64,000 nucleotides of DNA, from the IMG/VR virus record IMGVR_UViG_3300028886_000055, positions 1-64,000 of that record, one strand, 5' to 3'. The first letter of the stretch is position 1. Each line of letters begins with the position of its first letter. Source of the stretch: a virus (taxonomy: Duplodnaviria > Caudoviricetes). Under the pieces are notes generated by a model that was not told the origin of the DNA, searched no databases, and saw only the letters and a program-made list of their open reading frames with translations. A program made the translations under genes and the position numbers. Below are positions 11,303 to 64,000 of this stretch, in pieces.

Positions 11303-11343
11303 AAAAGGATTATCAGACATTTGTCTGGTAATCCTTTTTTTTT
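11303..11343. terminator. bidirectional intrinsic terminator between the convergent arms
   Basis: AAAAGGATTATCAGACA-TT-TGTCTGGTAATCCTTTTTTTTT: long hairpin with A- and T-tracts on either side, located where + and - genes converge. Confidence 0.85.
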
Positions 11344-14300
11344 CATGCTAATGAGTTATTCGTGGCTTCTGACATTTTCTACAAACCTCTCCATAATCCA
11401 CTAGTACTTCTATATGCCGCAGAATTAGTATAAATCCACGCATCTAACGATTTTCCTACTTCATTTCCTGTAACAATATTCTTTCCAGCTTTCCAAGTAG
11501 ATTTTACAAAGTTAGCTGCAGTAGCATACGCAGGAACTTCTGAATCCATTATATTTCCACCAAAAACATTCAATAAATTAAAGTTATCAGCAGAACCGTT
11601 TATTGCTCGATAAACCATATTAAATCCTTCGTCTGATATAGCTCTACCTAAAGTATATGGAGATTTATCTTTCTTTCTATTTTCTTTCCACATTGAAAGT
11701 AAGGTTTTAACAATACCTCCGAGAATTGCCCACATTAACAACTTGTATGCAAGTAATCTTAAATTTTGACGTTTAGCATCACAGTCTTGAACATTTTTCC
11801 AAGCTCCAATCAATCCTAAATTTTTGGTATCTCTGCAAAAATCTCTTAATGTATAAAATATTCCTTCCATGTAAGATTTAGCAACATCCATAACTGGTTC
11901 TCTAGGATCGTTTGGTTCTAATTCACTTTCTGGAACGGGTATTAAACTTTCTTCTCCGTTAACATCTATAACTCTTTTCCAAAATAAAAGATTTCCATCA
12001 GCATCAGTAGCTTGTTTTCTAACATTTGTTTCATACTCTTTAGGTGACAAAAACCATTGTGTTTTGTTTGCTGTAAGATATGTAGAAAATTGTAAAAATA
12101 AAGAGCCTAACGCATGCTTTTCTGCTTGAATTCTTAACTCGTGATCATAATAGCCATAAAGTCTATCGGCAAAAGATTTTAACGCTACTATTTCTTTAGG
12201 AGCGTAAGGTTCTGGTAAAGCATCACCTTCCTTTAAATTATATCCAGCTTCATTGAAATCTCGTAACATGGATAAGTATAAACCTTGCTATTTCGAATCT
12301 GTACATTTTGTACCATCCCAAGTAGAAAAACGTTTATCTTTTTTCATATTATATTTTAATCCGTTCTCATAACTACAAGCATCAAAACATCCATCATGTT
12401 TCATTTTAGCTATTAAAATAACCATTCTATTTGTATAGTCACCAGCTGTTGTAGTCCAGAATAATTTATCTTTAAAGTTAAATAATCCAACTTTACCAGA
12501 TTTTGTTTTTCTAGCCAATTGCGCATAATCCATATCTGAAATACCAAATGCTGCATTTAAAGATTCTAATAATGTAACACCGGCTAAACTTTCTGTACTA
12601 TCCTTTATTACAACTTTATAAGCATCTATATAATCAGCTTTTGTAAAACCTTTTCCTTCACCCCAAGTATCCCCTACAAAAATACCAATACCTTTCCATA
12701 ATCCATCTAATACATCACGAATTGGAGCAAATACATTACCTACAATCATAGAATAACTTGCAGCCATTTTAGCTTTTCGGATCAAATGAGTATTTTCTTT
12801 TTCCTAAGCTGACAATAGTGTAACATTATGTATTGACTACTTTACGAAATTATCTAAATAATCTAAATTAACACTAGTATCTAATCCTGCCTAATTGCCC
12901 CAAGCTTCTATTAAGAATTTAGCTACTGCAATATGTGGTAATAATTTATCTAGTTCATCTCGTCGAATATAAGTTAACTCATGTTGTAGTACAATATTTT
13001 CTACATTAGTTTCCCAAAAACCTAATGGTTTAGATTGCAATAACTATGTTCGTTTATACTAATCGTCATCACTTTCAGTATATCTAATAAATATTTTATT
13101 TCTCTATTCTGCTTTCTAAAAAGCCTCATATTCAGACTCAGTATATACGTTTGCTTCTTCTCTTCGAAAAACTTCTTTAGCTTCTTTTCCAAAAGATACT
13201 ATTTCTTTAAATTCCTATTTAATAGTATCTTCTAGATGATCTCTATTTAGCTTTGAACCAGCAGCAGCTTCTTGAATAGGAACCCAATACCATTTCTATC
13301 CTCTTTTTTGTTTCTCTTTTTGAACTTCTGGAGAAGATTCTGAATAACTTTCTAATCCCCAACGTCTTCTATTTATTATCCATAATACTTTTCTTAAAAA
13401 TTTCTTCTCTGTATCAGATAATGTAGTATCAGTATCAGGGTTTTTAAATACTAAATTAGGATTTAATTTTCCATCTTTTTCTTCAAATAGGTTTCTATAT
13501 AATATAGACTAATTTCCTAATGTTAAATTTTGGGATTGTGAATATCCTTTATCCTTCCATAATTTTTTAACGTGATTTTCAAAGAAATCGTCTTTAAAAT
13601 GTACGAAAGTTCTTCTAATTTTTTGAAAACTTTGTAAAGCACTATTAGTTAAATTTGCTTCATTTCTATAAGGTATCACATCTGCTGTTACAGTCATAGA
13701 TCCATTAAACAAAGTATTTTTACTAGCTTGTCCAATAGTTTGCATTTCTTGAATTCCATACCAATCTCCTTTTGCATACATATAAGTTTGCAATATTATT
13801 AAATACAAATTTAATAGTTCTAATTTCTATTTATCACCTTGTACAGCACTTATAGCATTTGCATATCCATCTTTTAAAAATTCTCCAGGAGATTTATCAG
13901 CTGTAATCAGCTGAATTATTTTCATACATTCTTCTGCTACAATCTATCTATTTAATACCTATAATTTTTCAATTCTTTCTTGAATAGTATGTAATAAAGA
14001 CTAATCACTTATTGCAACATGTCCTAAAGTTGTTATAACGTGATTTTTTAAGTTTTCAATATCTGAAATAAATGCTTTTTCTAACTGTGCAATATTTGTA
14101 GTTACTCCAGCTTCTTTACATAGCTGTTTATAATCTGCTATTAACATTGAGTTTTGAATACTTAAGGTATTACCTGTAAAAGGATTCATTACTTTAAGTT
14201 CTCCAATGTGTTCATCTTTTAATTCAGACCAACATTCATCTAAAGCTACCAACAATTCCATAAATTTGATATTTCCTTGTGTAGCCTATAATTTTACTTT

Positions 14301-15941
14301 TCCAGAAATCTAATGGTTCTTTTTAAATGCTCCAAGTATTGTATTTCCAAAACCTAAATTTATAGTATCATTTAAATTATCTTCTCCCGTTAATATGATA
14401 AAATCAATTTGTCCAGTATTTTTGTTTTGAAAAGCTCCAATTCCTAAAGCTTCTAATTTAGGTAATGCTTTATATTCCCAATCATCAGTTGCATATTTAT
14501 TTAGTGCCATACTAATTCTGCCAGCACTTGAACTATTTGAAGATATAGATGTAAGAGATGCGTGATTGTTTATTACATTTTGTATTTTTCTTAAAAATAA
14601 GCCTAATTTATTTATATCAGCTTTCTTTTCAGCATCAATTACTTTAGCGACTTTTTCTCTTAACTCAGTATTAGTTTCTGCTGGAGAACTTTCTTTTACA
14701 TAATAAATATTACCATGCCTATCCTAAAATTCGTAGGACATTCCTGGTTTAGTAGATATAACTACATATTTTTTTATAAAATTAGTAACTTTTCTAGATC
14801 TAGAATCCTATACAATATTATGAGTTGGAAATAATTTCTATACTTTACTAGTAACATCGTGTGTTATTACCCCATTGAAATCAGCTTCATTTAACGTGAC
14901 AGGGATAAGGTTATTTAAATCTCTCCAAATTTCTCCAACATAAGGATCTAATCTAGAACTCTTATCTCTTCTTAATGCAATAGTTCTATCTACTATTTCG
15001 CCGAATGCTATTTCTTTTAATGTAGTATCATCATTTTCAAAGAACTAAACAGGAACAATATTTAATGTCATATTTTTAATATTGTATCCTTTCTATGCCA
15101 ATACTTGTCTAATAGCTCCAAGATAGTAATCTCTTTTTTGTCTCTTTACGTCTGGCTATTCTAATTCATTTTTCGCAGAAGATTTAAATAAAAATACGTG
15201 AGGTACACCATAACTATCAATAGCTACTAAATCTATATTTACATATAATTTTTTAGAAGTTCCGTTTAAGTCTGCTGTTAAACTTACATTTGGAATTATA
15301 TGTTCTACATTCACACCAGTAAGTGTTAGTATTTTATTTCTAACTTTCTATAGCTAACTTAAAAAATTAGAAAGCATAGCGTCACTTTTTAGCCATTCGT
15401 CCTATATTTCTGAAGGAAATGTACTTCTTATAACTCTTTTGATACCTTCTAATGTTCTAGATGTAGTATCATTAAAATAATTATTTAAAAGAATGTGTAA
15501 ATAATATGCTCTAGTTTCAGTTCTTTCAAACGATTCAAATAGTTTTTTTATTTCTTCGTCAGTTAATTTGTTTTCATTTTTTAACGTTGAAGCTAATTTT
15601 TCTGGATCGTAAGGTTCTGTAAACGGAGTCATTCCGTCTATTTTTTTTCCACCTTCTATAAACTAATGTAGTTCTATATAATCTTCATTATCGGGAATAT
15701 CATATAACTCGTCTTTATTTTTTGAATAAGTAGCTCTTTTAATCCTTGTTGTAGATTTTAATTCTTTTAATCTTTTAATGGCATCTTCTTGACTTAAATC
15801 TTTACTTTTTATTACATCTGATTCGTTAGTAATGTCAAATTTATCAGCTATTTCATTACGTAATGCATCAAAATCTGTAAAACTTTCAGTGCCAGTTAGC
15901 TCTCCATTTTCTATTATATTTAAAATCCATGTACAGTCCAT
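11343..15941 (-). CDS. giant virion cargo protein A (~1532 aa, TAG=Gln)
   Basis: Seven track fragments share one frame and each ends in TAG. Start MDCTWIL at 15941, TGA at 11343. Has a degenerate PD-(D/E)XK-like segment and a hydrophobic helix near the C-terminus. Confidence 0.85.
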
Positions 15942-15943
15942 AA

Positions 15944-18484
15944 TTATTCACATATTTCTTCTATATAACTTTCAGAATGTTCTTTAAATTGAGAATTTCT
16001 AATCATTCTAGCAATCAAATTAGTAACCTATCTTGATTCTGTTGCTTCTATAAGTTCATTTGCATCTACTGGTTCTTTTTCAAAAATCATTGATCCAAAG
16101 TTTTCAATTATCTGCTATAAATCTTTAGTTAATATCTATTCTAATTCAAGATTTTCGGCACCCTATCCTAATGCAAACGCTTTAATTATTATATTGCGAA
16201 ATTCTTTTTTAAACCTATTTAAGGTTTTCTCGATATTTTCGTTATTATAAAAATTAATGACAATTTGCTATCCGAATTCTTTACCCAATAAAGTCACAAA
16301 TAATTCTTCTTGTAAATCCAACTCAGACCTGTAATCTCTAAATTTTCTAAAACGTTTTATCTAATCCTAATAATCAGGTAATTGTGTTACTAAACTAGTT
16401 AAACTATAATATGTTTTAGGATCTCTTACTTTTAAAATACCTAAAGCTAAATGCATATATTCGTGAATAACATCTCCTGCATCTCCACGTTCAATATTTA
16501 CATAAATTTGTCCATTAAAAATAAACGCTCTTGCTCTTTTAACACTATCTGGAAATCGTACTTTTTTTCCATTAATTTCCATACCATTTTTAATATCGTC
16601 ATCATTAATAATAGTACAATTTACTCCAAAATGATCTTTAAGATGATTTACTACTGCTAATAAATCTCTTTTTATATTAAACCTCGGGATGGTTATAAGT
16701 TGAGAAGGATGCGCCTCTTTTACTTCACTAAAAGTAACAGTACTCAGGTTTTTCTTTTTTCCTTGTTTAACATTCTCTACTTTTAAAATCTTAAATTCGC
16801 TTACTTCCATCTCATCTAAAACCTAGTCTATTATTTTATATCTAGTAGTAGGATCTACTGAGAATATAGTAGAAAGTTCTAATATTTCTCCAGAATCTAT
16901 TTTATCCTAAAGTAAATCAGTAGCTCTCATTAGAAAAAATTCTAAGTCAGATATTTCCTACATTCTTTCTAAATATTTCTATTTCTAAGCACTATCTTTA
17001 AAAAAATCAAAATATCCAAAACTGTTTAAAAACTAATCTACGTCTACAGTCATATCCTACCAAAATAAATTGGTAGGTAATTTAGCTGGTTTCCATCTAC
17101 TACTCAATATACTAATATCATGTATAAATTTTACCTTTGGATAATGTTTAATAGGAATCATACTGCCAGGTGTAAGCTTAGAATTTTTAATATCTACCTA
17201 TAATTTTTTAAATCCCGAAACTAATATTTTATTTTTAAAATTATAAATAGTAGTTCTAGCTCCAGAATAAGTTTTATCTGAATTTCGTATTTTTCTTCTT
17301 TCTTTAGTAATAAAAGCTCTAGCTTCTCTAAGATTATCAAATCTTCTTAATCGTTCACTGAGTTTTTCAGTTGAAAACATTAGTGATTGTCCAACATAAT
17401 ATTGACCTAAATGTTCTACAATATTAAATCCAAAATTATATTCTATCAACCTAGTAGATGATCCATAAAAATTTGGACTTAATAAATGAATATTGGGATT
17501 TTTTACAGGATCAAAAAATAACGTTTTTAATTTATAATGATCGGTTGCTTCATACTATATCCTTATAAATAAATTATTATAACTCAATTTTGTATTGAAA
17601 TCATAAATCCATTGTTGCAATATTTCTAACGGATCACCTTCTAAACTATCTTCTTTTATAATTTTTTCTAGTTCTTCTTTTGAAATAATATCACCTTTTA
17701 TGATTCTACTTAAATACTTTTCAGATGGATCTGAAGAATCTGGATTTAAAAGAGCCTAAGATTGAATTGGAGTAATAGTATCACGTATAACATCCTCTAA
17801 AATCTATAACTAGTCTTTATCAACGTTTGATTTATAATAAATGTCTCCAAATATATAAACTAATAATTCAGATAATCTTCTTCCAGAATCTTCTATTTCA
17901 GATAATCTATTCATTATTATTTTTAGTCTAGTGTTAGATGTATATTTATCAGCTTTCTCTAATAAATCATCAAATATATTCTATACAGCTTTAATCAATT
18001 CGGAATATCTTTGATCTTGTTTCAATAATGCTTTATATGCTATAGACATTTTCATTACTTGTATAAGCTTTGAATTTCTAGTTTCAGAATTACGTAAAAT
18101 AGAATCGTCTATTACAAATTTTAATTCTCCATCTTGACCTATCTACATATCTAAACCTGTTCCAGATAAATTATTTACAAGTAAAATATTATCCATAAAG
18201 TGTGATTCATCAAATATATCCTAATTGTTAAGATTTGGATTTAAATATTTTGTAATTAATTTAAATAAAGATGAATTTCCAACTTCAGTTCCTAATGTAT
18301 TATTAGAAAGATTAAATACACGAGGCACATATCCGGATTTATCTAACAAATCTATTAACTCACCTAATTGATCTGAGTTAAATAAATCTGTAATTATATT
18401 TTCTAAATTATTTCTATTTTCTTCAGAAATAGGGATGGATATTTCACCACCCCTAACATTAATTATAGCTTCACAGTTTGCCAT
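15944..18484 (-). CDS. virion cargo protein B with zincin metallopeptidase motif (~846 aa, TAG=Gln)
   Basis: Fragments 16367, 17198 and 18221 are in frame. Start MANCEAI, end EEICE-TAA. RAFIFNGQIYVN...DVIHEYMH (HExxH). Confidence 0.85.
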
Positions 18485-18485
18485 G

Positions 18486-21400
18486 TTATGAACAATTTAC
18501 ATTAATAGATAATATTCTTGACATCATTAGATTCTTAACTTTTTCTTTTATTTGCTCTAAGTTCATATTCTTTGTAATTTTATGTTTTAATAAACTTATT
18601 TCCATATCTGAAATTCCTTGTAATCCGCTATAGTTACTATTCAAATGGCTTCCTAGACTTTTTACAAAAGATAATCCAGGGAATCTATTATAGTTAGGTT
18701 CGTCTGGCTATTCTTCCGATGTAATATTTCCAGATCTTACATAAAGATCGAACCCGCCTGTATCAGGATTATATATTCTAACATATATAAAATCTTTATA
18801 TTCATATGAATTATAATTATATCTAGTAACAACAGGAGCAGCTGCTTTCTAGAAAGGTTCTACAGTATACACAGGAATTAATGGTTCTCTACTTTTATCT
18901 TTAGCATCCATTTGTCTAAAATAATCAGGAATTAAAGTAGATTCATCATTTACAAAAGGTATAAGAATAGGATTTAAATTGTCTCTAGTTAGCTTATCTT
19001 TGGATGTTATTAAGTCATATATGAAAAACCAATCAATCAACGGTCTTCCAAAAATTTTTATTTTCCCAATCTTAGGGATTTCTTTTAAATACAAATTATA
19101 TTTATCCTAACTATATCCAGATTTAGCAACTTCAAAGAAATTAATAAATCCAAATTTGCTTACAATAATATCCATACCAGAATAACTATCTCTAGTTGTT
19201 CCATTAGCAAGATCATGTAATAAAACACTATCTGCTAGTTTCATTTTATCACTTTGATCAAGATCTATTAATAATGCAGGATTCTTTAATAATTCTAAGA
19301 AAGTATTTTCAAACCAATATTTAAATTTAGATATCGATTCAGATGAAGAAATATTTATTAATTCATCTTCCTCTTGAATTTTTCTCTTTAGGCTATCGTT
19401 CTATCTTCTAACTGTCATGGTTCCACTTTCTATTGGAAAAGATATATCCTATTGAACAAGATATCCATAAATCATCTATGAATCAATAACTCTATTTATC
19501 TAATTCCACTAACTCTTATTAACAGTAGCTTTACTTGTTTTTGGATCTTTTTCAGCATTTAATAAATCTTTTCGTATTTTACGCATCAATTCAAATCTAC
19601 TTGAAACAGCATCAATACTTCTTACACCATTAAATATATCAATAAAAGCCTAACGTATATGAGGAGAATGCCAAATAACATCTAACACATTAAAACAAGT
19701 TTTAGAATTATCTGCTAAAGCAATAGCAGTAAGCCTATATTGTTCATCATTGAAAAATCTTTTTAAATCAAAGTTCGTTAATAACTCATTATTTTGAACA
19801 TAGCTTGATTTTGAAAGTTTTGAATCAGCTTTCTAAAACTGTTTAGTTATATCTGCTTCTAGCTTTACTAAATATTCAATAAAATCATGTGGTACTGGAG
19901 GAACTCCCTAGTTTATTTTTAAAAATCTAGCTAACATACTTATTTCATCACCACCTTTCAATAATGTTTTAAAAGTTTCCATTCTTTGTGGACTAGTTTC
20001 TGGATCATAATGCTACTAGTATTCTAAAAATTTTATTTTAAATCTATTTAAAGCTTGCCAATTATATGTATTAGTTAACGGTGTTTCTGTAAAAGCATCA
20101 AAAAACTCCTATGTAGTAAGTATTAACTACCCATCTTCATTAGTATATGATCGTTTGGCTTTTTCTTTATAAATAACTGATAAATATTGTATAAATCTTT
20201 CTTTTGTCCAATTTTTAAATTCAGGATATTTTTTCTCCAATCTGTTTAGAATTTCTTTCCAAGAGTCTTCAGATAAAATTGGCATACGAGGTCCAATTAA
20301 GAATCTTTCAATCGTACTATTTATATATGTTTGTTTTGTAGGATCAAACATGTTTTCTCTACATTGATTTAATATAAAATCGATATCGTCAGAAATCATT
20401 AATTCTGCAACATCTCTTAAATCAATATTCAATATTGCAGAGAATAAATATATTTTCATATATTTAGGATCAGCATTAATTTTTCTTAAAATTAATTCTT
20501 TAGCATTATCTGTTGCAGCAGAAATAATCGCAGATATAGTAAGAGCAGTATTTTCAGAACCTTCGTCGTATTTTATTAGCTATTCTTTAATTTCTTCCTC
20601 TGGAACACCTCTCGAATTTAAATATTTTCTTATTGCATTTTTTATATTATCATTTTGATCTGGTGTTAATACCGAGTTATTTATAGAAGGTAAAACAGTT
20701 ATTCTTTCTTTTGATTTTCCAGGAAAAGTTATTGTAAAATTAAAAGGAAGACGTCTTAATCTATGAATATCTCCAGATGAAATACTATCCATATAATGAT
20801 AAATCAATGCAAAATTATCTTTAGCACCATTTGCACCAACACCAATACCCATTTTTCCAGATAAGTTATCTTCAGTAGTAATATTTACCATAGAAGGGCA
20901 TGAAGAAATTAATCTTCTATTTCTTAAACCAAGTGGGGATTTTTCAGATGCTGGACCTAATACACCAAAAGATACTGGAGATTGAGCATTAATCAAATTC
21001 CTTGGGTCTGTAACGACATCCATAATACCGTATGCAACTACATTCTTAAATATTTGCTAAATTTCATATCTTGAAGGTTTAGATCTATCATATTTAACAC
21101 TATCATCTAAATTAGAGAAGTATGTAGTATGTCTGTTAATAGCTTTCATTAATACTTCTTCTACAAGATCTCTTTTAATAGTTTTTTTGTCTTGTTTTTC
21201 AGATACTATGTGTTTCTTTCTTACTTCATTATTTATGAATACTAATTCATTGTCACCAACTAACTTAAGAATTTCTACTATATCATTATGTCCACTACCA
21301 TAAAACAACTACTATTCGTTACCATTATATTTACTTAACAATCTATCTGCTAGAAAACTAATATCTACACCTTTCTTAGACTGAGTTACAGTTTTACCAG

Positions 21401-28988: not shown

Positions 28989-28992
28989 ATTA

Positions 28993-38214: not shown

Positions 38215-38216
38215 AA

Positions 38217-45277: not shown

Positions 45278-45290
45278 AATTAAACATTAA

Positions 45291-45664: not shown

Positions 45665-45718
45665 TATTTTTAGCAAATAATAAAAATATTAGGCTTATGT
45701 ATTATTATCAGTCTTTCT

Positions 45719-46585: not shown

Positions 46586-46623
46586 AACTTATTAACATTA
46601 ATCATTATAAATCATCATTAAAC

Positions 46624-48788: not shown

Positions 48789-48790
48789 AA

Positions 48791-53560: not shown

Positions 53561-54114
53561 ATTATATCATAATTTTTACTATCTATCATAAGATCTTTTA
53601 ATGTCATTGCTTTTTCTCTTGAATATACCAACTATACATTTTTAATAGTAGCTTGCTCTCTATAATACTAATATCCTAAATCTGTAATTGCTTTAAATCT
53701 GACAAAATGCTTCATACCGTCATAAAATACTTTTGCGGCATCTAAACATTTAAACATTGTTACTTTGTTAACTTTAATGTTTTTAATAGGGTTGACTTTT
53801 GTTAATTTCTCATAATATTTATCTGGAACAGCTAAATGGTAGTATCCATCCCAGTTATGTTTCTGTTCAAAAATATATCTGATTTTCATAAGTAACTTAC
53901 GTTTATAATAATGGTAATGTTTAATACCATCATAAGTTAATTCACCTACATAAAACCATAAATCTTTGTTCTATATTTGAACGTCTAACCCTCGCCTTAC
54001 TAATCTGAACATAAGACGAAATCCAAAGTTTACAATTTTTTTAATATCGGATTTTAAAACATTAGGATATTTCTCTTGCAGCTAATCTATATAATCATCA
54101 ACATATTTAATCAT
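53557..54114 (-). CDS. conserved crAss-like protein, IHF/HU-like (185 aa, TAG=Gln)
   Basis: MIKYVDDYID(Q)LQEKYPNVLKSDIKKIVNFG... ATGA overlaps at both ends. Position in the tail block. The fold call is tentative. Confidence 0.6.
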
Positions 54115-54554
54115 CAGTAATAAGATTTACCATTATTTGCATTTTCAGCTATCTTCATTTTTCTTTTAGTATCAAGATGGATAGGTTTTTCTACAGTATA
54201 ACCAGCTTTTTGATATTTAAATATAGGTAAATATCCTGTAAAATTAGTAGATAAATAATCTATTTCTTTCCAAAGTCCACGTTTTCTACGTTTTAAGAAT
54301 TCTTCATCCGAATATCCTTTAATATAAATTTCTGCAGTTACGCCTTTAGCTAATCTAAAATCAAACGTATTACTATTATCTATAATATCGTCTATTATTA
54401 ACTATAATGCATCTGCAAAAATCATATTAGCAAGATATTCTTTATGTTCTGATTTTACAAGTTCTTTAACGTATTTACGTTCTGTCTTGATACGTCTATT
54501 GTTAAACGGAAGAAATAACTAAGGTCCATTTATAGCATGTCCAAGAGCATACAT
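54114..54554 (-). CDS. conserved crAss-like protein, IHF-like (146 aa, TAG=Gln)
   Basis: MYALGHAING...LIIDDII...IDYLSTNFTGY...NNGKSYY-TGA. The fold call is tentative. Confidence 0.6.
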
Positions 54555-54555
54555 A

Positions 54556-55248
54556 TTAATTAATTGGTTTAAATGACTTTCCGTATATCTTTCTATTAAA
54601 TGTAACTTTTGCATCAAGAATCTTATCCATATCATTCTGATTAATGTATTCAGAAACTCTTGCTGCATCACATAATTGCAACCATCTTTGATTTAAGAGT
54701 TGTGCTTCCTAGATAATTGCCTGATTATGAGTTCTCATACCTTCTTTAAATTTCTAAATATAAGCGATAAAACAAGCTATCGCATCTTTCTATTTCTCAT
54801 TTACATAAGGTAGTCCTTCATCATCAACTTCTTGTCCTTTATATAAGATTTGAATCGGACCATATTCTTTATCAAAGAAAAGTTGATCTCCAACTCTCTC
54901 ATATTTTACATATTTACCTCGTTGGTATAGAGGGTCTTGAAACTCTTTTAATGATTCAATATATGATTCTGTAAACTGTGAGTGAAAATCTCCATTAGGC
55001 GTATCGTTAGTTACTCTATTCCAATCTTCATAGAAATAATTAACCGATTCAATTACATCACAATTACAGGGTAAAGTTACTTGTTTGTTTGCACAATCTA
55101 CGTCTACAACAAATCTATATAATCTTGTATTATGTAAACCTATCTTATTCCAAGCGATTAAAGCAATTTCAATAAGACTATCTGAGTCTGTAAGATCTAC
55201 ATCATACATAAGGTTGGCCTACCACAAAGCTGCTTTAATACTATCCAT
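54556..55248 (-). CDS. tail ring/tubular protein (230 aa, TAG=Gln)
   Basis: MDSIKAALW(Q)ANLMY...LPCNCDVIESV...ILYKG...DDEGLPYV...LCDAARV...YGKSFKPIN. Gene order in the crAss tail block. Confidence 0.72.
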
Positions 55249-55934
55249 TATTTAGGTACTTGATTATTAGGTTGCTAAGGTTGTAATAACTATTTATAAT
55301 AATAAATCTTCTTTTTAGTTATTCTTTCCTTAATTTCTGCATCTAAGAAAGACATATTGTTCATATCTGCATCACATTCGCATCCAAATTTACTAAGTTG
55401 ACGTTCATCTTTAAATACACCAATTACTGTAACACGTTTGACAAAAGGCGCATTAAATACCCAACAATCACACATTCCGTTTTCATTTGGTGATACGTTT
55501 ATATACACATAAGGTTTATCATTTCCCCATTTCCTATAACGTCTATAACGTAGATTATTAGCTTTTGTATAAACAACAAACGGATTCTAGAGGTCTGGAG
55601 AACCTATGTATTCAATACCTACATCTCCAAAATCAGTTAACAATATCGGTATTTCGAAATGCATTGTAGGAGTTCCTCCCCATAAAGAGTTGTTTTCCTA
55701 ACATTTAGAACAGTTCTCAATATCTTTACAATCTATAGGTATACAAGATATTGTTCGCATTAAATCCTACTTAGGAATAATCCCTTTTAATGTATACTAC
55801 TTAATTACTGCAAGTCTTTCTTCTGCTATTTCGTCTTCTAACTATTCTAAAGATAAAGTTAGAGTTGAAGAATAACCTCTTAAACCTCCAACTATATCGT
55901 TATAAATAGCTGATGCTAATTTACTATATGCCAT
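55248..55934 (-). CDS. tail ring protein (228 aa, TAG=Gln)
   Basis: MAYSKLASAIYNDIVGGLRG...HFEIP...IEYIGS...FNAPFVK...PNNQVPK. Confidence 0.7.
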
Positions 55935-55937
55935 AAT

Positions 55938-55966
55938 AAAAAAGGTGGTGGAATCCCACCACCTTT
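55938..55966 (-). terminator. intrinsic terminator
   Basis: Minus strand AAAGGTGGTGG-GATT-CCACCACCTTTTTT, after the auxiliary capsid gene. Confidence 0.8.
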
Positions 55967-55976
55967 AGCTTTTTAA

Positions 55977-57110
55977 TCAAGGATTAGTTTCTTCATTATC
56001 TGTGGAACTATCAGTAGCTGGTTTATTTACTGTACTAGCTTTTCTGGTTTCATCATGTTCAAACTTTTCAATTGTAGCTGGATCATGAGTAGGATCATCA
56101 TTAAGAATGTCACCCTATGTACCGCCTTCACCAGAACGAACACCTGTAACAGTAATAAGTTTTTTATTCCAACCGATGTTTTCAATTGCATGTAACAAAG
56201 CATCGTCAAGACCTGCACCGCAACCACAAGCGGGAACAAAGAAAACATGAGTAGTCTTTGAATGAGTTACCTCACCAACAGCCGAACCACCAAGAACACC
56301 ACGGCAAGAAATCTAATGAATAGTATATTGAGTATACTTGTTGCCAGGAATAGGCATTTCGCTTTCGTTGAGAGATTTCCAGCGGAAGTTCTCCATAGTA
56401 GGAAGACGAAGATCCTTAAGTAACTCTTCATAAGTACCAAAGCCATTTACACCCTGATAAGCATGGATAAACTCTTTCTCAGATTTCCAAACAGGTTGCT
56501 TAGAAGTATCACAGGTATTTTCACCCTCATAACAATCGAATTCCGTAAGTTCATCAACTGTTACCCAACCACCTTCATGATAGGTGCAGCAATCAGAAAT
56601 TTCAGGAACATAAACCTTCAATTGTGCTTCTGTAAACCAACCATAGTTATCGTTTTCAAAGATTAAGTTATTGCCGTCATAAGAAACTTTTAGATAAACA
56701 TCACCATAAAGACGAATAATCTTATTGATCATCTTAGAAATCTTTTCAGCGGTATTCTATTTGTTTGTCCACTCATAATGGAAATCTTTACCTTTAAAGA
56801 CAAAATCATTACTATAGAAAGAATTGTTGTCACCAGAACGTTTTAGATAGAAGTCTAATTTGAATCGCTTAGCATTCTTAATATCATCATCTGCAGCAAC
56901 AGCGGCGTTAAAACCAGCAATGTTAATCTTAAGCTTTGCGTTCATAGGAGCAATATAAGGATTACGATAAATAGCAACAACATCCTCATATTTAAACAAT
57001 TTATTCTCTAGTCTAAGCATATCTTTGCTAGAGTTATCGCCGTTTCCAACAGGATTAATTTCAATCATGTCGGCATCATGAATGAACGTAGTAGTTGTGA
57101 AATCAAACAT
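55977..57110 (-). CDS. probable auxiliary capsid / abundant structural protein (377 aa, TAG=Gln)
   Basis: MFDFTTTTFI...YSNDFVFKGK...GFGTYEELLKDLRLPT...AVGEVTHSKTTHVFFV. Only 3 TAG codons, and it has its own terminator. Confidence 0.68.
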
Positions 57111-57135
57111 AATTATTAAATTTTTTTAAAGTTTA

Positions 57136-58122
57136 TTACTATTGCTGGGCTGGTGGTGCAATAGTCTAATTGACCGCCATATTGGTCTATAATCTTGGAT
57201 CGCTTGCGTTCTCCATAACAAGTTTTACCAACCCATTTAATATCTCTTGACAGACATAATCAGGAAACTCTAGTACCTAAGATGTATCAATGGTGCTGTC
57301 AAGTTGTTCTTGTGTAAGTCTTATATATTGTGGAGTTTTTAAATAGTCAACTCGCACTAAAACTGGTTCAAATACAGAATCGTCCTTTCCATAACGTATC
57401 TCCATTCTAACTGCAGATTTATTACCATAACGATGTCCAGGAAGTCGTTCAATTTGATCATCTTTTGTAGAATCATATGGAACTTTATTACTTTCATATA
57501 ATTTTCTAGAAAGCCCGGAAAGATTAAGTTTAATCAATCCGTTTTCTTCCTTAACTGCAGATATTACAGGATCTGTTCCAGTTCCTAATGGAGATTGTTC
57601 ATCAGTATGATACTCATTAGTTGGAAGCTCATAGGTACCATCTTCTGTCATTGTATTCACATTATGAATAAAGAAATATGGTCTTTTATAAGAAGGCCTC
57701 ATATAAACATTATTTACAATTTGAGACCACATATCTGACGTTAATCTAGAAGCTCCAAATTCTACAGTACTTCCATTATCATAACAATCGTATTTCTTTT
57801 TCACTTTAAATACAACTAAACAGTTTAGAATGTGATAATAGTCGGGAGGTAATTCTACTTCCCATATATTTTCGTAATTTGAACCATAACCACCGTAAAC
57901 CTTTGTGTCTACTCGTCTTGGCTTTAAAGGTTGAGTTGCTTTTAAAACTCTTAAGTTATCCGATGTCTATTGACTTGAATCGTAGACATTATAACTCATA
58001 TTAATATATTGACTAATTGCCTTATTTATAAAGTGATTATAATCTTCAAGGAGTAGACTAGGAGCCTGAACTTTATTTAACTCTGTCAATGCTCCTAGTA
58101 ATAATTTACGAGCAGTAGTCAT
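57136..58122 (-). CDS. structural ring/neck protein (328 aa, TAG=Gln)
   Basis: MTTARKLLLGALTELNKVQAPSLLLEDYNHFINKAI...LPPDYYHILNC...YMRPSYKRPYF...EFPDYVCQEI...ENASDPRL. Confidence 0.72.
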
Positions 58123-58127
58123 ATATT

Positions 58128-58979
58128 TTATTCTTTATTTTTAGTCTTTTTATTACTATCTTCTTTAGCTGCTTCGAGTTCAGGATAAGTATCTCTCTTA
58201 ATGAGTTCGAGTATCTTCTTATTTTTAGGATCTTTTAGATAAGCTAGAACTGCATCTTCAGTAATTCCAAGAACTATATCATCTGCATAAACGTAAACCT
58301 TGTTTTTGATATTAATAACGTGCTTTTCTCGGGCTTCAATAATAAGCAAACGGATACCAGTATCTGAACCAGCGTATACATCAATAATTCTTTGAGGATC
58401 ACGTTGTGCAATATCTAGTAAGTATTCAGTAACTTCAGAATCTGGTGCAGCTTTCATATCTTTACCAAGTAAACGTGCATGGAATACACGTCCCATAGCA
58501 CCTTTTTCATCATCAAAGATATAAGCTTCTGCTTTATGACGAAGTTGACGAGTACTAATACGTTTAACACTTTCAAGCTCAGGAGCCTCAACGTATAGTT
58601 CAGCCAAACCATAACGTGCGTTCATCTTACCACGTGCATCTTCACCGTCAATAAGAAGATTACCTTTTGAATCTCGGGCATCTCTAGATAGGGCAATGAT
58701 TGATGAATGTTTAATACATTCCCATTCTGCTTTTTCCCAGGGATCTTCTAGGTTTAATGTTGTTCCATCTTTTACCTCAAATACTTGAGTTTCTGGAATT
58801 AAAACTTCTCCAGAATTTCTGTCTTTATCAGACAAAATCATATCACCCATACTATTTACCCTGCGAACACAGTCTGGGTATCGTCCTGTGATAGGGTCTT
58901 TTGCTACACCAAGAATATATTTATCTATAACCTTGCCATAGACACTTCTCAAAACAATAATATTTTTATCCATAATCAT
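58128..58979 (-). CDS. conserved capsid-module protein downstream of MCP (possible portal-vertex auxiliary protein)
   Basis: Intact 283-aa ORF without TAG. Function inferred from gene order only. Confidence 0.65.
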   Translation of the reverse strand: MIMDKNIIVLRSVYGKVIDKYILGVAKDPITGRYPDCVRRVNSMGDMILSDKDRNSGEVLIPETQVFEVKDGTTLNLEDPWEKAEWECIKHSSIIALSRDARDSKGNLLIDGEDARGKMNARYGLAELYVEAPELESVKRISTRQLRHKAEAYIFDDEKGAMGRVFHARLLGKDMKAAPDSEVTEYLLDIAQRDPQRIIDVYAGSDTGIRLLIIEAREKHVINIKNKVYVYADDIVLGITEDAVLAYLKDPKNKKILELIKRDTYPELEAAKEDSNKKTKNKE

Positions 58980-58996
58980 TAATCCATATTAAAATA

Positions 58997-59027
58997 TTTA
59001 GTAGGGAGAATTAACTCCCTACTAAAT
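58997..59027 (-). terminator. intrinsic terminator after the major capsid gene
   Basis: ATTTAGTAGGGAG-TTAATT-CTCCCTACTAAAT followed by ATTTT on the minus strand. Confidence 0.7.
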
Positions 59028-59083
59028 TTAAAGTTAAATACCGTATATACTTAAATGTACATACTTAAACTAAGCGTGTAGTA

Positions 59084-62000
59084 TTAAGCTTCGCGTAGTA
59101 TAAAGCTCCTGTCAAATGTTACCTATAAGGCTCTTTATCCTTATATTCTACAGTTTCTTATTTAAGTTATATCTGTAGTTCAGACTATATCATCACCTCA
59201 TTGAGGTGTCGGGCACTCGTGTTAGGATTATTGTTTGTGCTACTCACCTATTAGTCGTTAGAGGTTTATCGTACTTTTATACACTTCCGATACTTCCTAC
59301 GGGATTGTCCACTTCTGGAGGTTCCCCGATTTCACCCGATTTGCTACTAATGTCACCATTAGAAGCCTCACAGTTTGTTATTTTATACGTTTTGTGATAA
59401 ATCCATCCAGAATTACAATACTTTCTCATATGATTTGGATTGCATTCAATATTTATCAGCTCTATTTTAATACAAAACTTCTGTAAGGATTAAATACAGC
59501 GATTGAAGCATAGCCCCAGTTAACTAACTTAGAACCTGCTACAGTACTTGAAACTACACCACTGCTTAGACCATCAAGACCGCCTACACCAGCAATCTTA
59601 TTATACATAAAGTCACCGCCTTTAAGAGTGAACATTGCAACAGCAGGATTACCACTAGTACTATCGCTAGTCAAGTCAATCATCATTGCAAAACCCTTCT
59701 CGCTACCAAACTCACGAGTAAACGTTCTATCAACGATGAACGAAATTGTATTACCTGCAAAATTGTAAGAATTATAAGTAGCGCCTACATTAAGGTAACC
59801 ATTAGCTTCCTTAGACCATAGGTATGTACCATCTGGTTTATAGTTAGCAAGCCAAGCACCAAGTTTGTTTTGGATATCCATCCAAGCCTTTTCGTTGCAA
59901 ATAAAGGCGTACTTGTTGCCTGTAGGCTTCTCAGCCTTCTGATTCATCATACCAATAGCTGTCTGCATAGCATCAACAGTCAACTCGCTGTAAATATACT
60001 TGCTAGCATAGCGTTCAACCTGAGGAATTAAACCATCGTACATATAAATAGGACGATTAGTGTTAGGATCTACAATAGTCGCTTTACCATTCTTATCAAC
60101 ATTGCTCTTACCGAATAGGAGAGCACGGTTACGAACCTCAAGGAAGTTCTTTAACAAGTTTTTCTCAACTGTATCCATCTTGTAAATGGTCTCACTTAGA
60201 AGCTTGCCGTTACCGTCACCTTTGCCGATAGAGATAAATTGAGTCTCCGTTGCTTTATAAAGTGCAGAATAGGTATCATCACAACGATGTGTACCAATAT
60301 AACCACGATGTTTCTCAATATTACTCTAATATTTTACATACATTAATGTTAGCTTTATGTCACCATAAAGATCAGACTATATCTTAATCTAAATATTTAA
60401 ATACAAATCCTTTACAATGTTCTCGTTTTCCTTGTGCTACTAACTTAGCATTTTTATAACCAGCTTTTACACAGTCAGTCATTGTATTAAATTCTTCAAG
60501 AAGATTTCCATCATCATCAAATCTACCAACTTTACCTCCAACATAAGGTTTGTCAACAGTTCCCATATTTCTATGTTTTAATTTCTTCATAAAGGGAACT
60601 TTTTCGTAAGAAAACTAATAGCCTAAAAATTGATGTCCTTCTTTAATTGCCCTAGGTAAATGACCTCCACCTTTTGCTGAAGGATTTAAAAATCGGCCTG
60701 CAGAATTCACACTATCAAACTCTCTTACAAAATTTCCATCTAAATCATACATATAAACAGCTTTTCTTGGATTAGCACAATCAGGAAGTCTTCCTCCTAA
60801 CGCTAGATTATATACATCCTCTCTTTGTAAAAATTCTTTATTTACTAATTCTTCTTCAAGCTTATATGCATCTTTTTCATTTTCAAATTCTTTTATTGTA
60901 GTTCTAACAAAATTTTTAACTCCGTATTTTTTAACTGCGGATTGAAAAGGAGTTTTAGGATTCATATAAGTTGTAGGTCTATATATTGATACACCATTTC
61001 CGATATAACCGTCAAAATCATCCTGCTCCGTACCATGTACTCCTATATAAATTTTATTATTAATTTTACAGACTGTTTGATATACTATATATTTCATTTT
61101 GTATTTAAATTTTAGATTTATTCCATTTCGGAGTTTATTTCTCCTACGTCTTTCAGACTAGTCGTTGAACCTTCCTTAGTACTTCTCAATGAGTTTGTAT
61201 TATCTAAGGCTTGGCTGCTGATTGTCTTAAAAAAGAGTTCCCAGCAATTAGAAATATTTTTTTAATTTTTCGCTGTCGTAGCATCAGCGGAAGAGAGCAA
61301 TGTAAAAGGACCATAAAGTCTAAGGGTCACCCTCTTCGTGTAATTCGGGCATATAATTTGCTATAAAGCGAGCAGTATCACCAACAGAATATTCTGTGGG
61401 GTCAATACCATTCTTTAAATCAGTAGTAATGTATCGACATTCACAAATCCAATAGTTATCAGCTCTACGGATAGGTCTAGCAATTACTTGGAACTGTTCA
61501 AAGGTATTATCCATACGAAAAGTATCATATTTTTCAAAATAACGCTCTTTGAAAGCAAACATAATAGAAGTGCCATTGCAACCATCACCTTCAGGTGTTG
61601 CAGCAAGTTCTATACGTTTAATGTAATTTGTTTCAACCTCCCATTCAAAAGTCATACCATCAATTGACTGGAACTTATCAGCCTTCTTCAAATCACGATA
61701 GAAGACATTTCTAAGAGCTTCAGTAAGATAACCTGCTGTAAGCTCAGGATACATTCTACTTACAATACCCAATCTTTCTGGGCGAGTACCAAGGAACTTA
61801 TAGAAATCTTCATAAGTTCTTGTTTCCAATTTTGTTACCGTATTAGTTCTTTATCTAACACTTCTAATGTTTTATCATCACATTAGTTCAGACTATATCA
61901 TCATCTTAAAATAAGATGTTTCGCGCTCGTGTCGAAATATTGTTTGTGTTACTCATTCATTAGTCGTTGAACCTTCTTAGTACTTTTACACACTTCCTAA

Positions 62001-62135
62001 GCTTGGCTACTGATTACCCCAATTTTAATTGAAGGGCTCCCAGTAATTCACGAAATTTGCAATTAGTTATCACTAACTAATGGAGCGAAATTCACTCATT
62101 GTTGGTCTTTTTGTTATGAAATTTGCTACGATCAT
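59084..62135 (-). CDS. major capsid protein, four exons (62135-62094, 61826-61329, 60340-59485, 59112-59084), 474 aa spliced
   Basis: Joined exons (1425 nt) read MIVANFITKRPTMS|ETRTYEDFYKFLG...PELHEEG|YVKY(Q)SNIEKHR...DGLIPQVERYA...AVFNP|YRSFILREA. Every junction has exon-U / intron-terminal G. Lies downstream of an acidic scaffold gene. Confidence 0.9.
59113..59484 (-). mobile_element. group I intron 3 in MCP (372 nt, no ORF)
   Basis: P7 halves CTCTAACGACTA / GATGATATAGTCTGA, P3 TCGGG/CCCGA, IGS CTGTGAGGCTT pairing with exon AATCCTT (U.G) and with ACAG (P10), terminal G. Confidence 0.85.
60341..61328 (-). mobile_element. group I intron 2 in MCP (988 nt) carrying a homing endonuclease
   Basis: AATTGCTGGGAA / AATCAGCAGCCAAG / GGTTCAACGACTA / AAGATATAGTC core. 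IGS GCTCTCTTC pairs with exon GAAGAGGGT. P10 TTTTACAT pairs with 3' exon ATGTAAAA. Confidence 0.92.
60384..61097 (-). CDS. intron-encoded GIY-YIG homing endonuclease with NUMOD1-like repeats (237 aa, TAG=Gln)
   Basis: MKYIVYQTVCKINNKIYIGVH...FDGYIGNG...YNLALGG and VYMYDLDGNFVREFDS. The two track ORFs join through one TAG at 60615. The TAA stop overlaps the intron S element. Confidence 0.9.
61827..62093 (-). mobile_element. group I intron 1 in MCP (267 nt, no ORF)
   Basis: AATTACTGGGA / AATCAGTAGCCAAG / GGTTCAACGACTA / GATGATATAGTCTGA core. P1 ATGAGT with GCTCCAT, P10 TTTC with GAAA, terminal G at 61827. Confidence 0.9.
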
Positions 62136-62151
62136 AAACTTAAAATCTTTA

Positions 62152-63183
62152 TTAAATTAAACTGTCATATAAATCACCATCTGTTTTTGGTGCTTTATTT
62201 GATTTACGTGGTTTCCTTACGACTGCCTTTGCAGAATTGACGTTACCACTTTTTGCATCTTCTACACCTCGGTTGTAATTGTTTCTAGCAACCTCGGTAA
62301 TTTGTTGTTTATAATAATTATTTAACTCTCTAAAAGCATCTTGACCTCTAGTTAACCACCAAGCCATCTAGAAAATCGCATTAGGGTCATTCAATGCTTT
62401 TGCTATATGTCTTACACCTGCTGCATCAGAATCAAGAATAAAGCTAGCAACAGTATTCATATCTTCATCAGACATTTCCATAGGAATGCCTCCAAGATCA
62501 ATATCTCTATTTTGTTCAATAGTATTAAGTATTGTATCTTTAAATTGATTCATCTGTTGTTCTTGAGCTTCTCGAGCCTATTCCTCATACTAAGTTCGTT
62601 CTTCATCTTCTTTAGCTTTATATTCACTACGTAATGCTTCAACTTTCTTTTGGAACAACTCCTCATTATTTTTAGCATTAGTAAGTTCTTCTACAGCTTC
62701 GTCTTCAGTGATATTAGGAATCTTCGATCGAAGATCATATACAAATAATTCTTCATCTGAATAATCGTCAATATTATAAACAGGTTCATTAGACCCTTGA
62801 TTCTGTAAATAATTCTAAATAGCCTGTTGCGCAATATAATTATTATAATCATCAACTGACCAATTATTGGTACGCATCGCATTTAGAAGATTAATTTCAG
62901 AATCGTCCAAATCTGCTGAATCATCACGATCATTCAAGATTGACATCTAATCCTCTAATGATAGTTCATTAAAAGGAACTTCTTCATATCCATTTTCAGT
63001 TTCAAATTTAACTGAATCTGGATTTATACCTTTACTTCTTAGAAAGTAATCGAGCACATCACCAGAATCATCTTCCTATTCAGAGTACTCATAAGATTCT
63101 TCCTAAGGCTCTTCCTCGTGTTCTTCAATTTGTGGATCATCGTTTTCCAGCAAATCGTCTTCCCAATTGTTTAAATCATCCAT
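62152..63183 (-). CDS. probable capsid scaffolding protein (343 aa, acidic, TAG=Gln)
   Basis: Very Asp/Glu-rich N-terminus and coiled-coil middle, directly upstream of MCP. Fragments 62152 and 62368 are joined by TAG. Confidence 0.72.
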
Positions 63184-63214
63184 AAATCATTAGTTCTTAT
63201 TAACATTAAATATC

Positions 63215-63862
63215 TCATTTCCGGGATTTTAAATAATTTATAATCCCTTTTACATGTCCATCAGCAATTTTCTATCTACCTTCATCTGTTGTGAGAAAAT
63301 CTAAATTTTCTCTACAAGTATAAAAAAAGTTCTCAGTTAATACTGCAGGACATAAGCTTTTTTTAATGATATAGAAATTACTTTCGTAATCTACATCTCC
63401 ATCTTTTGTATCTTTGCCGAACTTTTTATCGGGCATTTCATTTTTACAAGCTTCCCAAAGACAATCTGCTAATTTGTCGGAATTAGTTTTACCAACAGTA
63501 GTCCATACTGTCCAATAATTAGCTTTAGGAAACCATTCATTTCCAAGTCCTAAGGCATTAGCATGAATACTTACAAGTATTACATTTCCAGCTCCAAGTT
63601 TTTTACACCAATTGTTAACTCGATTAACTCTGCTGGCTAAACTAATGTCTTGATCTTCAGGAACTAGTAATTCTGCGTCATAATGTAACGCTTTTAACTG
63701 GTCAACAATTTTCTTTGCTACTAATCGGTTGAAAGTCCCTTCTCTAAAACGCTATTTATAAATAGTCTCATCGGTTATATCCGTTACTATTGGACTCGCT
63801 TTACCTTTTGTATAGTCCTTATTTCCGTGACCATTGTCAATTAGTATTTTTATATCAGCCAT
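63215..63862 (-). CDS. N-acetylmuramoyl-L-alanine amidase (Amidase_3, endolysin; 215 aa, TAG=Gln)
   Basis: ILIDNGHG...FREGTFNR...DISLASRV...LVSIHANA...CPAVLTENFFY. Two in-frame TAG codons (63752, 63272). Absent from the ORF track. Confidence 0.9.
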
Positions 63863-64000
63863 AATATACTTCCGATAATTAATCCTGTTATTGTACCAAT
63901 AGAATCTGCAAATACGTCATACCAATCCCATTTATTATTAGGATTAACCTTATCGCCGTATTCTTTTCCCCAGGCTGCAGCAGTAGATACTAGGATTCCA
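63850..64000 (-). CDS. small membrane protein (YfiM/VanZ-like pattern), 5'-truncated
   Basis: ...AAAWGKEYGDKVNPNNKWDWYDVFADSIGTITGLIIGSILWLI-TAA, overlapping the amidase start. Confidence 0.6.
   Translation of the reverse strand, partial: GILVSTAAAWGKEYGDKVNPNNKWDWYDVFADSIGTITGLIIGSILWLI

What the first reader, a model, noticed from the sequence alone, without database searches (positions are those of the whole stretch)
11343..64000. TAG reassigned to Gln across the whole late arm, while the early arm avoids TAG
Seen: minus-strand fragments line up in single frames, and those checked end at TAG. True gene ends are TAA/TGA abutting the next ATG. TAG sits at positions where Gln is conserved: SF1 helicase GDxx(Q) at 33172 and (Q)GLE at 32731, GIY-YIG YIG(Q)T, NUMOD1 V-x-(Q)-Y, RNAP RIPA(Q) at 21633, MCP KY(Q)SN at 60326. 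The + arm genes contain no in-frame TAG and end in TAA/TGA. Established: code-15 recoding is known in some crAss-like phages. Inference: early genes translate under either code, while virion and lysis genes need a suppressor switch.
Basis: partly seen in the sequence, partly recalled or inferred. Interest (0 to 1): 0.8.

Follow-up and report, generated by a model that had tools for sequence, protein, structure and literature searches.

The report
Phage late genes read TAG as glutamine
This is part of a large crAss-like gut or rumen phage whose virion, RNA-polymerase and lysis genes use the stop codon TAG as a glutamine codon while its DNA-replication genes avoid TAG; the case is clear but this kind of recoding is already published.

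Summary
Reading TAG as sense raises coverage by long ORFs in the window from 44% to 95%. The minus-strand genes (11143-64000, continuing to about 99.7 kb of the 139.7-kb record) hold 374 in-frame TAGs, 47% of all Gln-type codons. They end only in TAA or TGA. The 21 plus-strand genes (122-11025: DNA polymerase, ligase, thymidylate synthase, kinase) hold none in 3,522 codons, although off-frame TAG is equally common there.

TAG means Gln. At 44 TAG columns in six genes, relatives that do not recode TAG show Gln as the commonest residue in 30% of columns (background 3.6%; true-Gln control 40%). Gln beats Glu by 14 nats and Lys by 19. In close relatives TAG swaps mainly with CAA and CAG.

A phage tRNA-CUA lies outside the window at 94078-94152 (-). 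No release factor or GlnRS gene was found. A complete 155-kb relative has the same layout.

Some plus-strand genes beyond the window do carry TAG. The timing switch is inferred, not shown.

All of this matches published descriptions of crAss-like, probably Zeta-group, phages (PMC7886860, 10.1101/2021.08.26.457843, PMC9523058, PMC12386605). This scan has noted the same phenomenon in at least 34 other genomes. It is ordinary and of low interest.

The parts
122..11025 (+). Distal end of the plus-strand replication arm: 21 genes with no in-frame TAG and only TAA/TGA stops. It includes ATP-dependent DNA ligase (844-2046), DNA polymerase (3074-4960), nucleotide kinase (5126-5446), thymidylate synthase-like (5954-6868) and an HNH endonuclease (122-553).
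11143..64000 (-). TAG-recoded minus-strand arm as far as the window reaches; it continues to about 99.7 kb of the record. 24 genes, 374 in-frame TAG (47% of TAG+CAA+CAG), stops TAA or TGA only.
18486..28988 (-). Giant 3,500-aa ORF with 79 TAG. It has an RNAP-like ARIPA(TAG)TQQSF motif followed 40 residues later by DYDID (DxDxD, residue 2486). This is the putative virion RNA polymerase of crAss-like phages.
   Evidence: no profile or PDB hit
28993..38214 (-). Giant 3,073-aa ORF with 71 TAG. An SF1 helicase core lies at residues about 1531-1865, with TAG at the Gln of motif GDxxQ (33172) and of QGxE (32731).
45719..46585 (-). GIY-YIG / NUMOD1 homing endonuclease with 8 TAG, including YIG(TAG)T.
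59456..60451 (-). Major capsid protein fragment (Pfam Crass_capsid, PHROG major head protein) with 6 TAG. The capsid gene region is broken by group I introns.
63215..63862 (-). Amidase_3 endolysin with 2 TAG.
11026..11365 (.). Convergent junction of the two arms. The cumulative GC-skew maximum is at 11365.

Best explanation
The window is part of a large crAss-like phage, probably of the Zeta group. Its record is 139.7 kb and about 78% complete. In this phage UAG is decoded as glutamine by a phage-encoded amber-suppressor tRNA (anticodon CUA, at 94078-94152 on the minus strand, outside the window).

Genes for virion proteins, the packaged RNA-polymerase block and lysis use TAG for nearly half of their Gln positions. 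They terminate only with TAA or TGA, so in a standard-code host they can give full-length proteins only once the suppressor tRNA is present.

The replication and nucleotide-metabolism genes on the other arm contain no TAG, so they read the same under either code.

Shown here: TAG is a sense codon. It behaves as Gln. A full-length tRNA-CUA gene is present. TAG use differs sharply between the two arms.

Inferred: the host GlnRS charges the tRNA, the host uses the standard code, and the arrangement serves to time or gate late-protein synthesis.
For: Coding density and stop usage support TAG as sense.

TerL relatives fetched as DNA fall into standard-code, TGA-recoded and TAG-recoded sets.
- In the 29 standard-code loci, our 17 TerL TAG positions align to CAA/CAG in 100 of 375 cells (background Gln 3.3%). 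Gln fills 24-27 of 28 cells at columns 228, 245, 453 and 622.
- Over 44 TAG columns in six genes the commonest residue is Gln in 30%, Glu 18% and Lys 7%. This matches the true-Gln control (40/14/7%) and not the Glu control (57% E, 5% Q) or the Lys control.
- Empirical likelihood places Gln above Glu by 14.3 nats and above Lys by 18.8 nats, with each column counted once.
- In close relatives our TAG aligns to TAG 122, CAA 44, CAG 10, GAA 13 and AAA 9. Their TAG aligns to our CAA 38 and CAG 9.

The tRNA-CUA is found by ARAGORN and scores 58.2 bits on Rfam tRNA (cut-off 29). Relatives G002 and G003 carry a tRNA-CUA too.

The complete 155-kb relative G002 shows the same TAG-rich and TAG-poor arms.

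Both arms have the same coding-strand GC skew and the same off-frame TAG frequency, so base composition does not explain the asymmetry.

Published work:
- Late-gene TAG/TGA recoding with suppressor tRNAs in crAss-like phages, including code switches within the Zeta group (PMC7886860).
- Replication genes in standard code, and a code-switch model (10.1101/2021.08.26.457843).
- Gln at TAG shown by metaproteomics in crAss-like phages (PMC9523058).
Against: - There is no protein-level evidence for this phage.
- The tRNA's isotype is ambiguous. It has U1 and a GTAAT D-loop like the phages' tRNA-Gln, but its anticodon arm is identical to tRNA-Lys(UUU) of unrelated jumbo phages, and its discriminator is A73.
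- No RF2, RF1 or GlnRS gene lies in the held 139.7 kb, though the record is only about 78% complete.
- The split is imperfect. TAG-bearing genes lie in the plus arm at 100-120 kb, and TAG-bearing genes lie upstream of the tRNA on the minus arm.
- Expression timing and the host are unknown.
Confidence: 0.9

Rival explanations
1. TAG is a sense codon but stands for another amino acid, Lys or Glu, or for a mixture, rather than Gln.
For: The anticodon stem-loop and variable region of the tRNA-CUA are identical to tRNA-Lys(UUU) genes in three unrelated phage contigs. Its best overall match is a tRNA-Lys(CUU) at 76%, though those loci were selected by that very stem. Its discriminator is A73. Amber suppressors in E. 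coli are typically charged by GlnRS or LysRS (my own knowledge). Other reports of this scan claim TAG=Glu in some rumen phages (I did not check them). Glu is the second-best fit.
Against: Gln beats Glu by 14.3 nats and Lys by 18.8 nats. The profile of commonest residues at TAG columns mirrors true Gln columns, not Glu or Lys columns. In close relatives TAG exchanges with CAA/CAG 101 times, GAA/GAG 26 times and AAA/AAG 11 or more times. CAA is two substitutions away from TAG. TAG sits at the invariant Gln of SF1 helicase motifs. All three tRNA-CUA genes start with U1, as 5 of 6 tRNA-Gln do and no tRNA-Lys or tRNA-Glu does.
Confidence: 0.06
2. The in-frame TAGs are real stops: a decayed or pseudogenised phage, assembly error, or many short genes.
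For: Under table 11 the arm breaks into short ORFs.
Against: 374 TAG but no TAA or TGA occur in 17,043 in-frame codons, with chance about 1e-715. The TAG positions are conserved as TAG or Gln codons in relatives. Essential genes (TerL, portal, capsid) are affected in several independent contigs. A tRNA-CUA is present.
Confidence: 0.01
3. The recoding is real, but its role is not timing of late genes. The suppressor tRNA may mainly harm the host by read-through of host stops, or counter defence. Or the asymmetry may be a by-product of history, with late genes simply accumulating TAG after the tRNA arrived.
For: PMC7886860 and PMC12386605 raise the anti-host idea. Some Zeta phages keep a tRNA-CUA with no recoding (PMC12386605). 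TAG-bearing genes sit upstream of the tRNA, and a few sit in the plus arm, so the layout is not a clean switch.
Against: The plus-arm genes in the window have none of about 100 expected TAGs, which points to active avoidance. Avoidance and enrichment follow gene function even across strands: TAG-bearing LysM/endolysin-like genes lie in the plus arm, and a TAG-free exonuclease block lies in the minus arm. The same pattern holds in a relative with 44% TerL identity.
Confidence: 0.2

Closest known systems
TAG-to-Gln ('genetic code 15') recoded crAss-like phages (Yutin et al. 2021, PMC7886860; Borges et al., 10.1101/2021.08.26.457843; Peters et al. 2022, PMC9523058)
   Same: In-frame TAG in TerL, portal, capsid, RNAP-block and lysis genes. 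Gln at those positions in standard-code relatives. A phage tRNA-CUA. Replication genes compatible with the standard code. Arms that follow GC skew. Low GC content.
   Different: Nothing of principle. This record is a more distant lineage: its TerL is 28-31% identical to named crAss-like phages and 57% to an unannotated gut contig. Nearly half of the Gln positions are TAG.
Zeta-group crAss-like phages ('Echekviridae' proposal, PMC12386605; Zeta group of PMC7886860)
   Same: Large genome: relatives are 127-162 kb and one complete relative is 155 kb. Sister clades use TAG, TGA or the standard code. The capsid gene is split by several group I introns with homing endonucleases. There is a giant RNAP gene block, a family A/B DNA polymerase and a tRNA cluster. 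In some non-recoded genes TAG is followed shortly by TAA or TGA.
   Different: Group membership was not tested by a labelled tree. The source is probably rumen or animal gut rather than human gut; that comes only from earlier notes of this scan.
TGA-to-Trp recoded phages (code 4: Agate, Jade, Lera)
   Same: The same logic: recoded late genes plus a suppressor tRNA. TGA-recoded TerL relatives of this very phage exist.
   Different: A different codon and amino acid. Here TGA is a true stop.

Membership tests
Code-15 (TAG to Gln) recoded phage | Essential conserved genes are broken by in-frame TAG and are restored as single ORFs when TAG is read as sense | tested here: met
   Coverage rises from 44% to 95%. 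With TAG read as Gln, TerL (17 TAG), portal, capsid and endolysin are recognised by profiles.
Code-15 (TAG to Gln) recoded phage | TAG positions correspond to Gln in relatives that use the standard code | tested here: met
   Gln is the commonest residue in 30% of 44 columns against 3.6% background. Gln is the best fit by 14 nats or more.
Code-15 (TAG to Gln) recoded phage | A suppressor tRNA with anticodon CUA is encoded by the phage | tested here: met
   94078-94152 (-) of the record, found by ARAGORN; Rfam tRNA 58.2 bits. Its Gln identity is not settled.
Code-15 (TAG to Gln) recoded phage | Recoding is concentrated in structural and lysis genes, while replication genes stay compatible with the standard code | tested here: met
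   Window: 0 TAG in 21 plus-arm genes against 374 in the minus arm. There are exceptions outside the window.
Code-15 (TAG to Gln) recoded phage | Gln is incorporated at UAG, and the host uses the standard code | not testable with these tools
   This needs proteomics and a known host. It has been shown for other crAss-like phages in PMC9523058.
Crassvirales / crAss-like phages | crAss-type major capsid protein and TerL | tested here: met
   Pfam Crass_capsid PF23898 at 30.1 bits (cut-off 27) on a capsid fragment. TerL matches phrog_6681 at 4.5e-72. TerL matches named crAss-like phages at 28-31% identity over about 80% of its length.
Crassvirales / crAss-like phages | A block of giant genes, one carrying the RNAP DxDxD catalytic motif | tested here: inconclusive
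   There are six ORFs of 625-3,500 aa at 11343-45226. DYDID lies 40 residues after an R-x-P motif in the 3,500-aa ORF. No profile or PDB sequence match was found.
Zeta group of crAss-like phages | Placement in the Zeta clade of a TerL or MCP tree | not tested
   No labelled Zeta sequences were at hand. Only the traits fit: genome size, introns, and mixed codes among relatives.

The most novel reading that the evidence does not exclude
The suppressor tRNA is a mosaic. It has a Gln-like 5' end and D-loop joined to an anticodon arm identical to phage tRNA-Lys(UUU). In this phage and in relative G002 it is the only tRNA seen on the late-gene strand, apart from the plus-strand tRNA cluster and within 10 kb of the GC-skew minimum. 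It is also on the minus strand in G003. It could therefore be transcribed with the late arm, giving a self-reinforcing code switch. Alternatively it could be charged ambiguously (Gln/Lys), so that late proteins are statistical mixtures.
Probability: 0.12. Interest if true: 0.45.

Novelty: already known. Interest (0 to 1): 0.17.

Why it matters
The practical point is annotation. Under the standard code more than half of this window is mis-called as short fragments, so any analysis of this phage must use TAG=Gln for the late arm.

Biologically it is one more clean example of code partitioning between replication genes and virion and lysis genes in crAss-like phages. It comes with a useful set of sister clades that use TAG, TGA or the standard code. 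It adds no new principle.

Tried and rejected
1. Typing the tRNA-CUA by similarity.
- A scan of viral contigs for its anticodon arm found tRNA-Lys(UUU) genes and one TGA suppressor in unrelated phages.
- The same pattern in 185,579 reference genomes gave only chance matches outside called tRNA genes.
- BLAST against 201 Bacteroidota genomes gave only short T-arm matches to tRNA-Met and tRNA-Thr.
- Pairwise identity to 112 phage tRNAs gave no consistent isotype for the three CUA tRNAs.
- The isotype remains unresolved.

2. Release factor (PF00472, PF03462) and GlnRS/GluRS (PF00749) genes were not found in the 139.7-kb record. The record is about 78% complete, so absence is not proven.

3. Pfam, PHROGs and PDB sequence searches of the giant ORFs gave nothing except an SF1 helicase core. 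A strict DxDGD search found nothing; the relaxed DxDxD search found DYDID.

4. TGA=W and TAA=Q readings were rejected on coding density and because TGA ends many genes.

5. A compositional or strand-bias explanation for the asymmetry was rejected, because coding-strand skew and off-frame TAG frequency are equal in both arms.

7. Searching relatives with the capsid fragment found only close, TAG-recoded relatives. These served for the synonymous-exchange test but not for a standard-code comparison within the window.
Full report
WHAT THE WINDOW IS. The window is bases 1-64000 of a 139,730-bp linear phage record with 31% GC, rated about 78% complete.

The named relatives of its terminase are crAss-like phages, at 28-31% identity. 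The best GenBank match is an unannotated human-gut contig at 57%. A capsid fragment passes Pfam's Crass_capsid threshold.

Cumulative GC skew turns at 11,365 and 97,463. These points coincide with the convergent and divergent junctions of two gene arms. The minus arm runs from about 99.7 kb down to 11.1 kb. The plus arm runs from about 100.4 kb to the record's end and, after a missing piece, through 1-11 kb.

CHECK OF THE OBSERVATION. Under table 11, ORFs of 100 aa or more cover 44% of the window. With TAG as sense they cover 95%, and with TGA as sense only 51%.

With TAG as sense, the minus strand from 11143 to 64000 becomes a tight row of 24 genes. Six are giants of 625-3,500 aa at 11343-45226. 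All end in TAA or TGA, and each lies within a few bases of, or overlaps, the next start.

These genes hold 374 in-frame TAG against 369 CAA and 51 CAG. Off-frame TAA+TGA occur at 9.2% per codon, so open frames of this length cannot arise by chance.

The 21 plus-strand genes at 122-11025 have no in-frame TAG in 3,522 codons and stop with TGA (11) or TAA (10). Off-frame TAG is as frequent there as in the minus arm, and both arms have the same coding-strand skew. Composition therefore does not explain the difference. At the minus-arm rate about 100 TAGs would be expected.

WHAT TAG STANDS FOR. I avoided database translations, because the public protein collection already holds this TerL translated with TAG=Gln (P0001, 100% identical).

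Instead I fetched the DNA of 53 TerL-encoding viral contigs and read the codons aligned to our TAGs. By their in-frame stops in TerL, the relatives fall into three sets: standard code, TGA-recoded and TAG-recoded.

In the standard-code set, our 17 TerL TAG sites align to CAA/CAG in 100 of 375 cells, against a Gln background of 3.3%. At four conserved columns Gln fills 24-27 of 28 cells.

I then extended the test to six genes and 44 TAG columns, using relatives that do not recode TAG. The share of columns with each commonest residue was:

| Columns | Gln | Glu | Lys |
|---|---|---|---|
| TAG columns | 30% | 18% | 7% |
| True Gln (CAA/CAG) control | 40% | 14% | 7% |
| True Glu control | 5% | 57% | 7% |
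| True Lys control | 4% | 5% | 49% |

Across all columns, Gln is the commonest residue in only 3.6%.

I also ran an empirical likelihood test using substitution frequencies from the same alignments. It puts Gln ahead of Glu by 14.3 nats and ahead of Lys by 18.8 nats, with each column counted once.

In close relatives (HSPs of 60% identity or more, including window genes 55248-63862), our TAG aligns to TAG 122 times, CAA 44, CAG 10, GAA 13 and AAA 9. Their TAG aligns to our CAA 38 times and CAG 9 times. CAA is two substitutions from TAG, so this exchange is what synonymous drift among Gln codons predicts.

Other reports in this scan claim TAG=Glu in some rumen phages. That is why I ran the Glu control. 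It does not apply here.

THE DECODING MACHINERY. ARAGORN finds seven tRNAs in the record. One has anticodon CUA, at 94078-94152 on the minus strand, and it scores 58.2 bits on the Rfam tRNA model. It lies outside the window.

It is the only tRNA on the late-gene strand. G002's tRNA-CUA is likewise its only minus-strand tRNA, and G003's tRNA-CUA is also on the minus strand.

Its features:
- U1 paired with G72, then G2-C71 and G3-C70.
- G10 and a GTAAT D-loop.
- Discriminator A73.

All three CUA tRNAs begin with U, as 5 of 6 tRNA-Gln in these phages do and no tRNA-Lys or tRNA-Glu does.

Its anticodon arm, however, is identical to that of tRNA-Lys(UUU) genes of unrelated jumbo phages. Similarity searches do not settle its isotype.

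No RF1/RF2 or GlnRS/GluRS domain is encoded in the held sequence.

GENE CONTENT OF THE TWO ARMS.

Plus arm in the window:
- ATP-dependent DNA ligase
- DNA polymerase
- nucleotide kinase
- thymidylate synthase-like protein
- metallophosphoesterase
- an HNH endonuclease

Minus arm in the window:
- A 3,500-aa protein with an R-x-P motif followed 40 residues later by DYDID. This spacing resembles the beta-prime double-psi barrel (my own knowledge).
- A 3,073-aa protein with an SF1 helicase core.
- Two GIY-YIG/NUMOD1 homing endonucleases.
- The capsid protein.
- An Amidase_3 endolysin.

Further along the minus arm lie portal and TerL.

In crAss-like phages the RNA polymerase is a virion protein made late and injected (my own knowledge; the gene block is described in PMC7886860). 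Its place in the recoded arm therefore fits.

LIMITS OF THE 'BY ARM' PICTURE. TAG's share of Gln-type codons rises along the minus arm: 29% at 84.5-100 kb, 40% at 64-84.5 kb and 47% in the window.

A block at 83878-86533, which includes an exonuclease, has 25 Gln codons and no TAG.

The plus arm at 100-120 kb holds several genes with internal TAGs. One is LysM/endolysin-like (111733-112800, 4 TAG) and another has 7 TAG.

A few plus-arm genes have a TAG one to eight codons before TAA or TGA. That pattern is already described for Zeta phages (PMC12386605).

So TAG use appears to follow gene function, and presumably timing, rather than strand as such.

The complete 155-kb relative G002 (TerL 44% identical, direct terminal repeats) shows the same layout of TAG-rich and TAG-poor arms.

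COMPARISON WITH WHAT IS KNOWN.
- Yutin et al. [quoted passage not shown] Branches within the Zeta group use TAG, TGA or the standard code. Zeta genomes are 145-192 kb, and their capsid genes are split by several group I introns.
- Borges et al. (10.1101/2021.08.26.457843) show crAss-like maps with replication genes in standard code and structural and lysis genes recoded. They propose the time-dependent code-switch model.
- Peters et al. (PMC9523058) report Gln at TAG by metaproteomics in two crAss-like phages.

Every element of the finding is therefore published. This scan has also logged the same phenomenon in at least 34 other genomes.

VERDICT. The phenomenon is already known, so interest is low. 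The only loose end with some novelty is the mosaic, isotype-ambiguous suppressor tRNA and its position on the late strand.

Noticed in passing
window 59084-63183 (-): The capsid gene region carries three group I introns by Rfam. One is at 61864-62104 (84 bits). One is seen as two halves, 61118-61264 and 60353-60478, flanking a GIY-YIG/NUMOD1 endonuclease ORF at 60384-61097. One is at 59163-59394 (40.7 bits). This fits the Zeta-group capsid genes described in PMC7886860.
   Followed up: partly
window 18486-28988 (-), residues 2444-2490: The 3,500-aa ORF has ARIPA(TAG)TQQSF followed 40 residues later by DYDID. This matches the spacing of the R-x-P...DxDxD catalytic region of RNA polymerases. No Pfam, PHROG or PDB sequence match was found for the whole protein.
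   Followed up: partly
window 45719-46585 (-) versus 122-553 (+): Homing endonuclease genes follow the code of their neighbourhood. The GIY-YIG gene in the recoded arm has 8 TAG among 17 Gln-type codons. The HNH gene in the replication arm has none.
   Followed up: partly
G000 94078-94152 (-), outside the window (L002:15079-15152): The tRNA-CUA is the only tRNA on the minus strand here. G002's tRNA-CUA is also its only minus-strand tRNA, and G003's is also on the minus strand. It combines U1 and a GTAAT D-loop like the phages' tRNA-Gln with an anticodon arm identical to tRNA-Lys(UUU) of unrelated jumbo phages.
   Followed up: partly
G000 83878-86533 (-), outside the window: A TAG-free block of four genes, including an exonuclease, lies inside the recoded arm. 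It has 25 CAA/CAG and 0 TAG. These genes are conserved in standard-code, TGA-recoded and TAG-recoded relatives.
   Followed up: no
G000 100-120 kb (+), outside the window: Some plus-arm genes have internal TAGs: 111733-112800 (LysM/endolysin-like, 4 TAG), 113011-113901 (4), 115003-116526 (7) and 116905-117576 (3). Others have a TAG 1-8 codons before TAA/TGA (108748-109629, 134800-135441, 129535-129705).
   Followed up: partly
L001:14348-16561 (-) = G000 77348-79561: The portal ORF is 737 aa from stop to stop, with 24 TAG. The first ATG leaves only 497 aa, so the true start is either non-ATG or the N-terminal part is arranged differently. A plus-strand ORF (79257-79445) overlapping it gave tblastn matches in many relatives.
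   Followed up: no
loci L026-L037 and L008-L024 (IMG/VR relatives): TerL relatives at 42-57% identity form a TGA-recoded set (5-10 in-frame TGA in TerL) and a standard-code set. Together with the TAG set they make a ready-made trio for studying code switching.
   Followed up: partly
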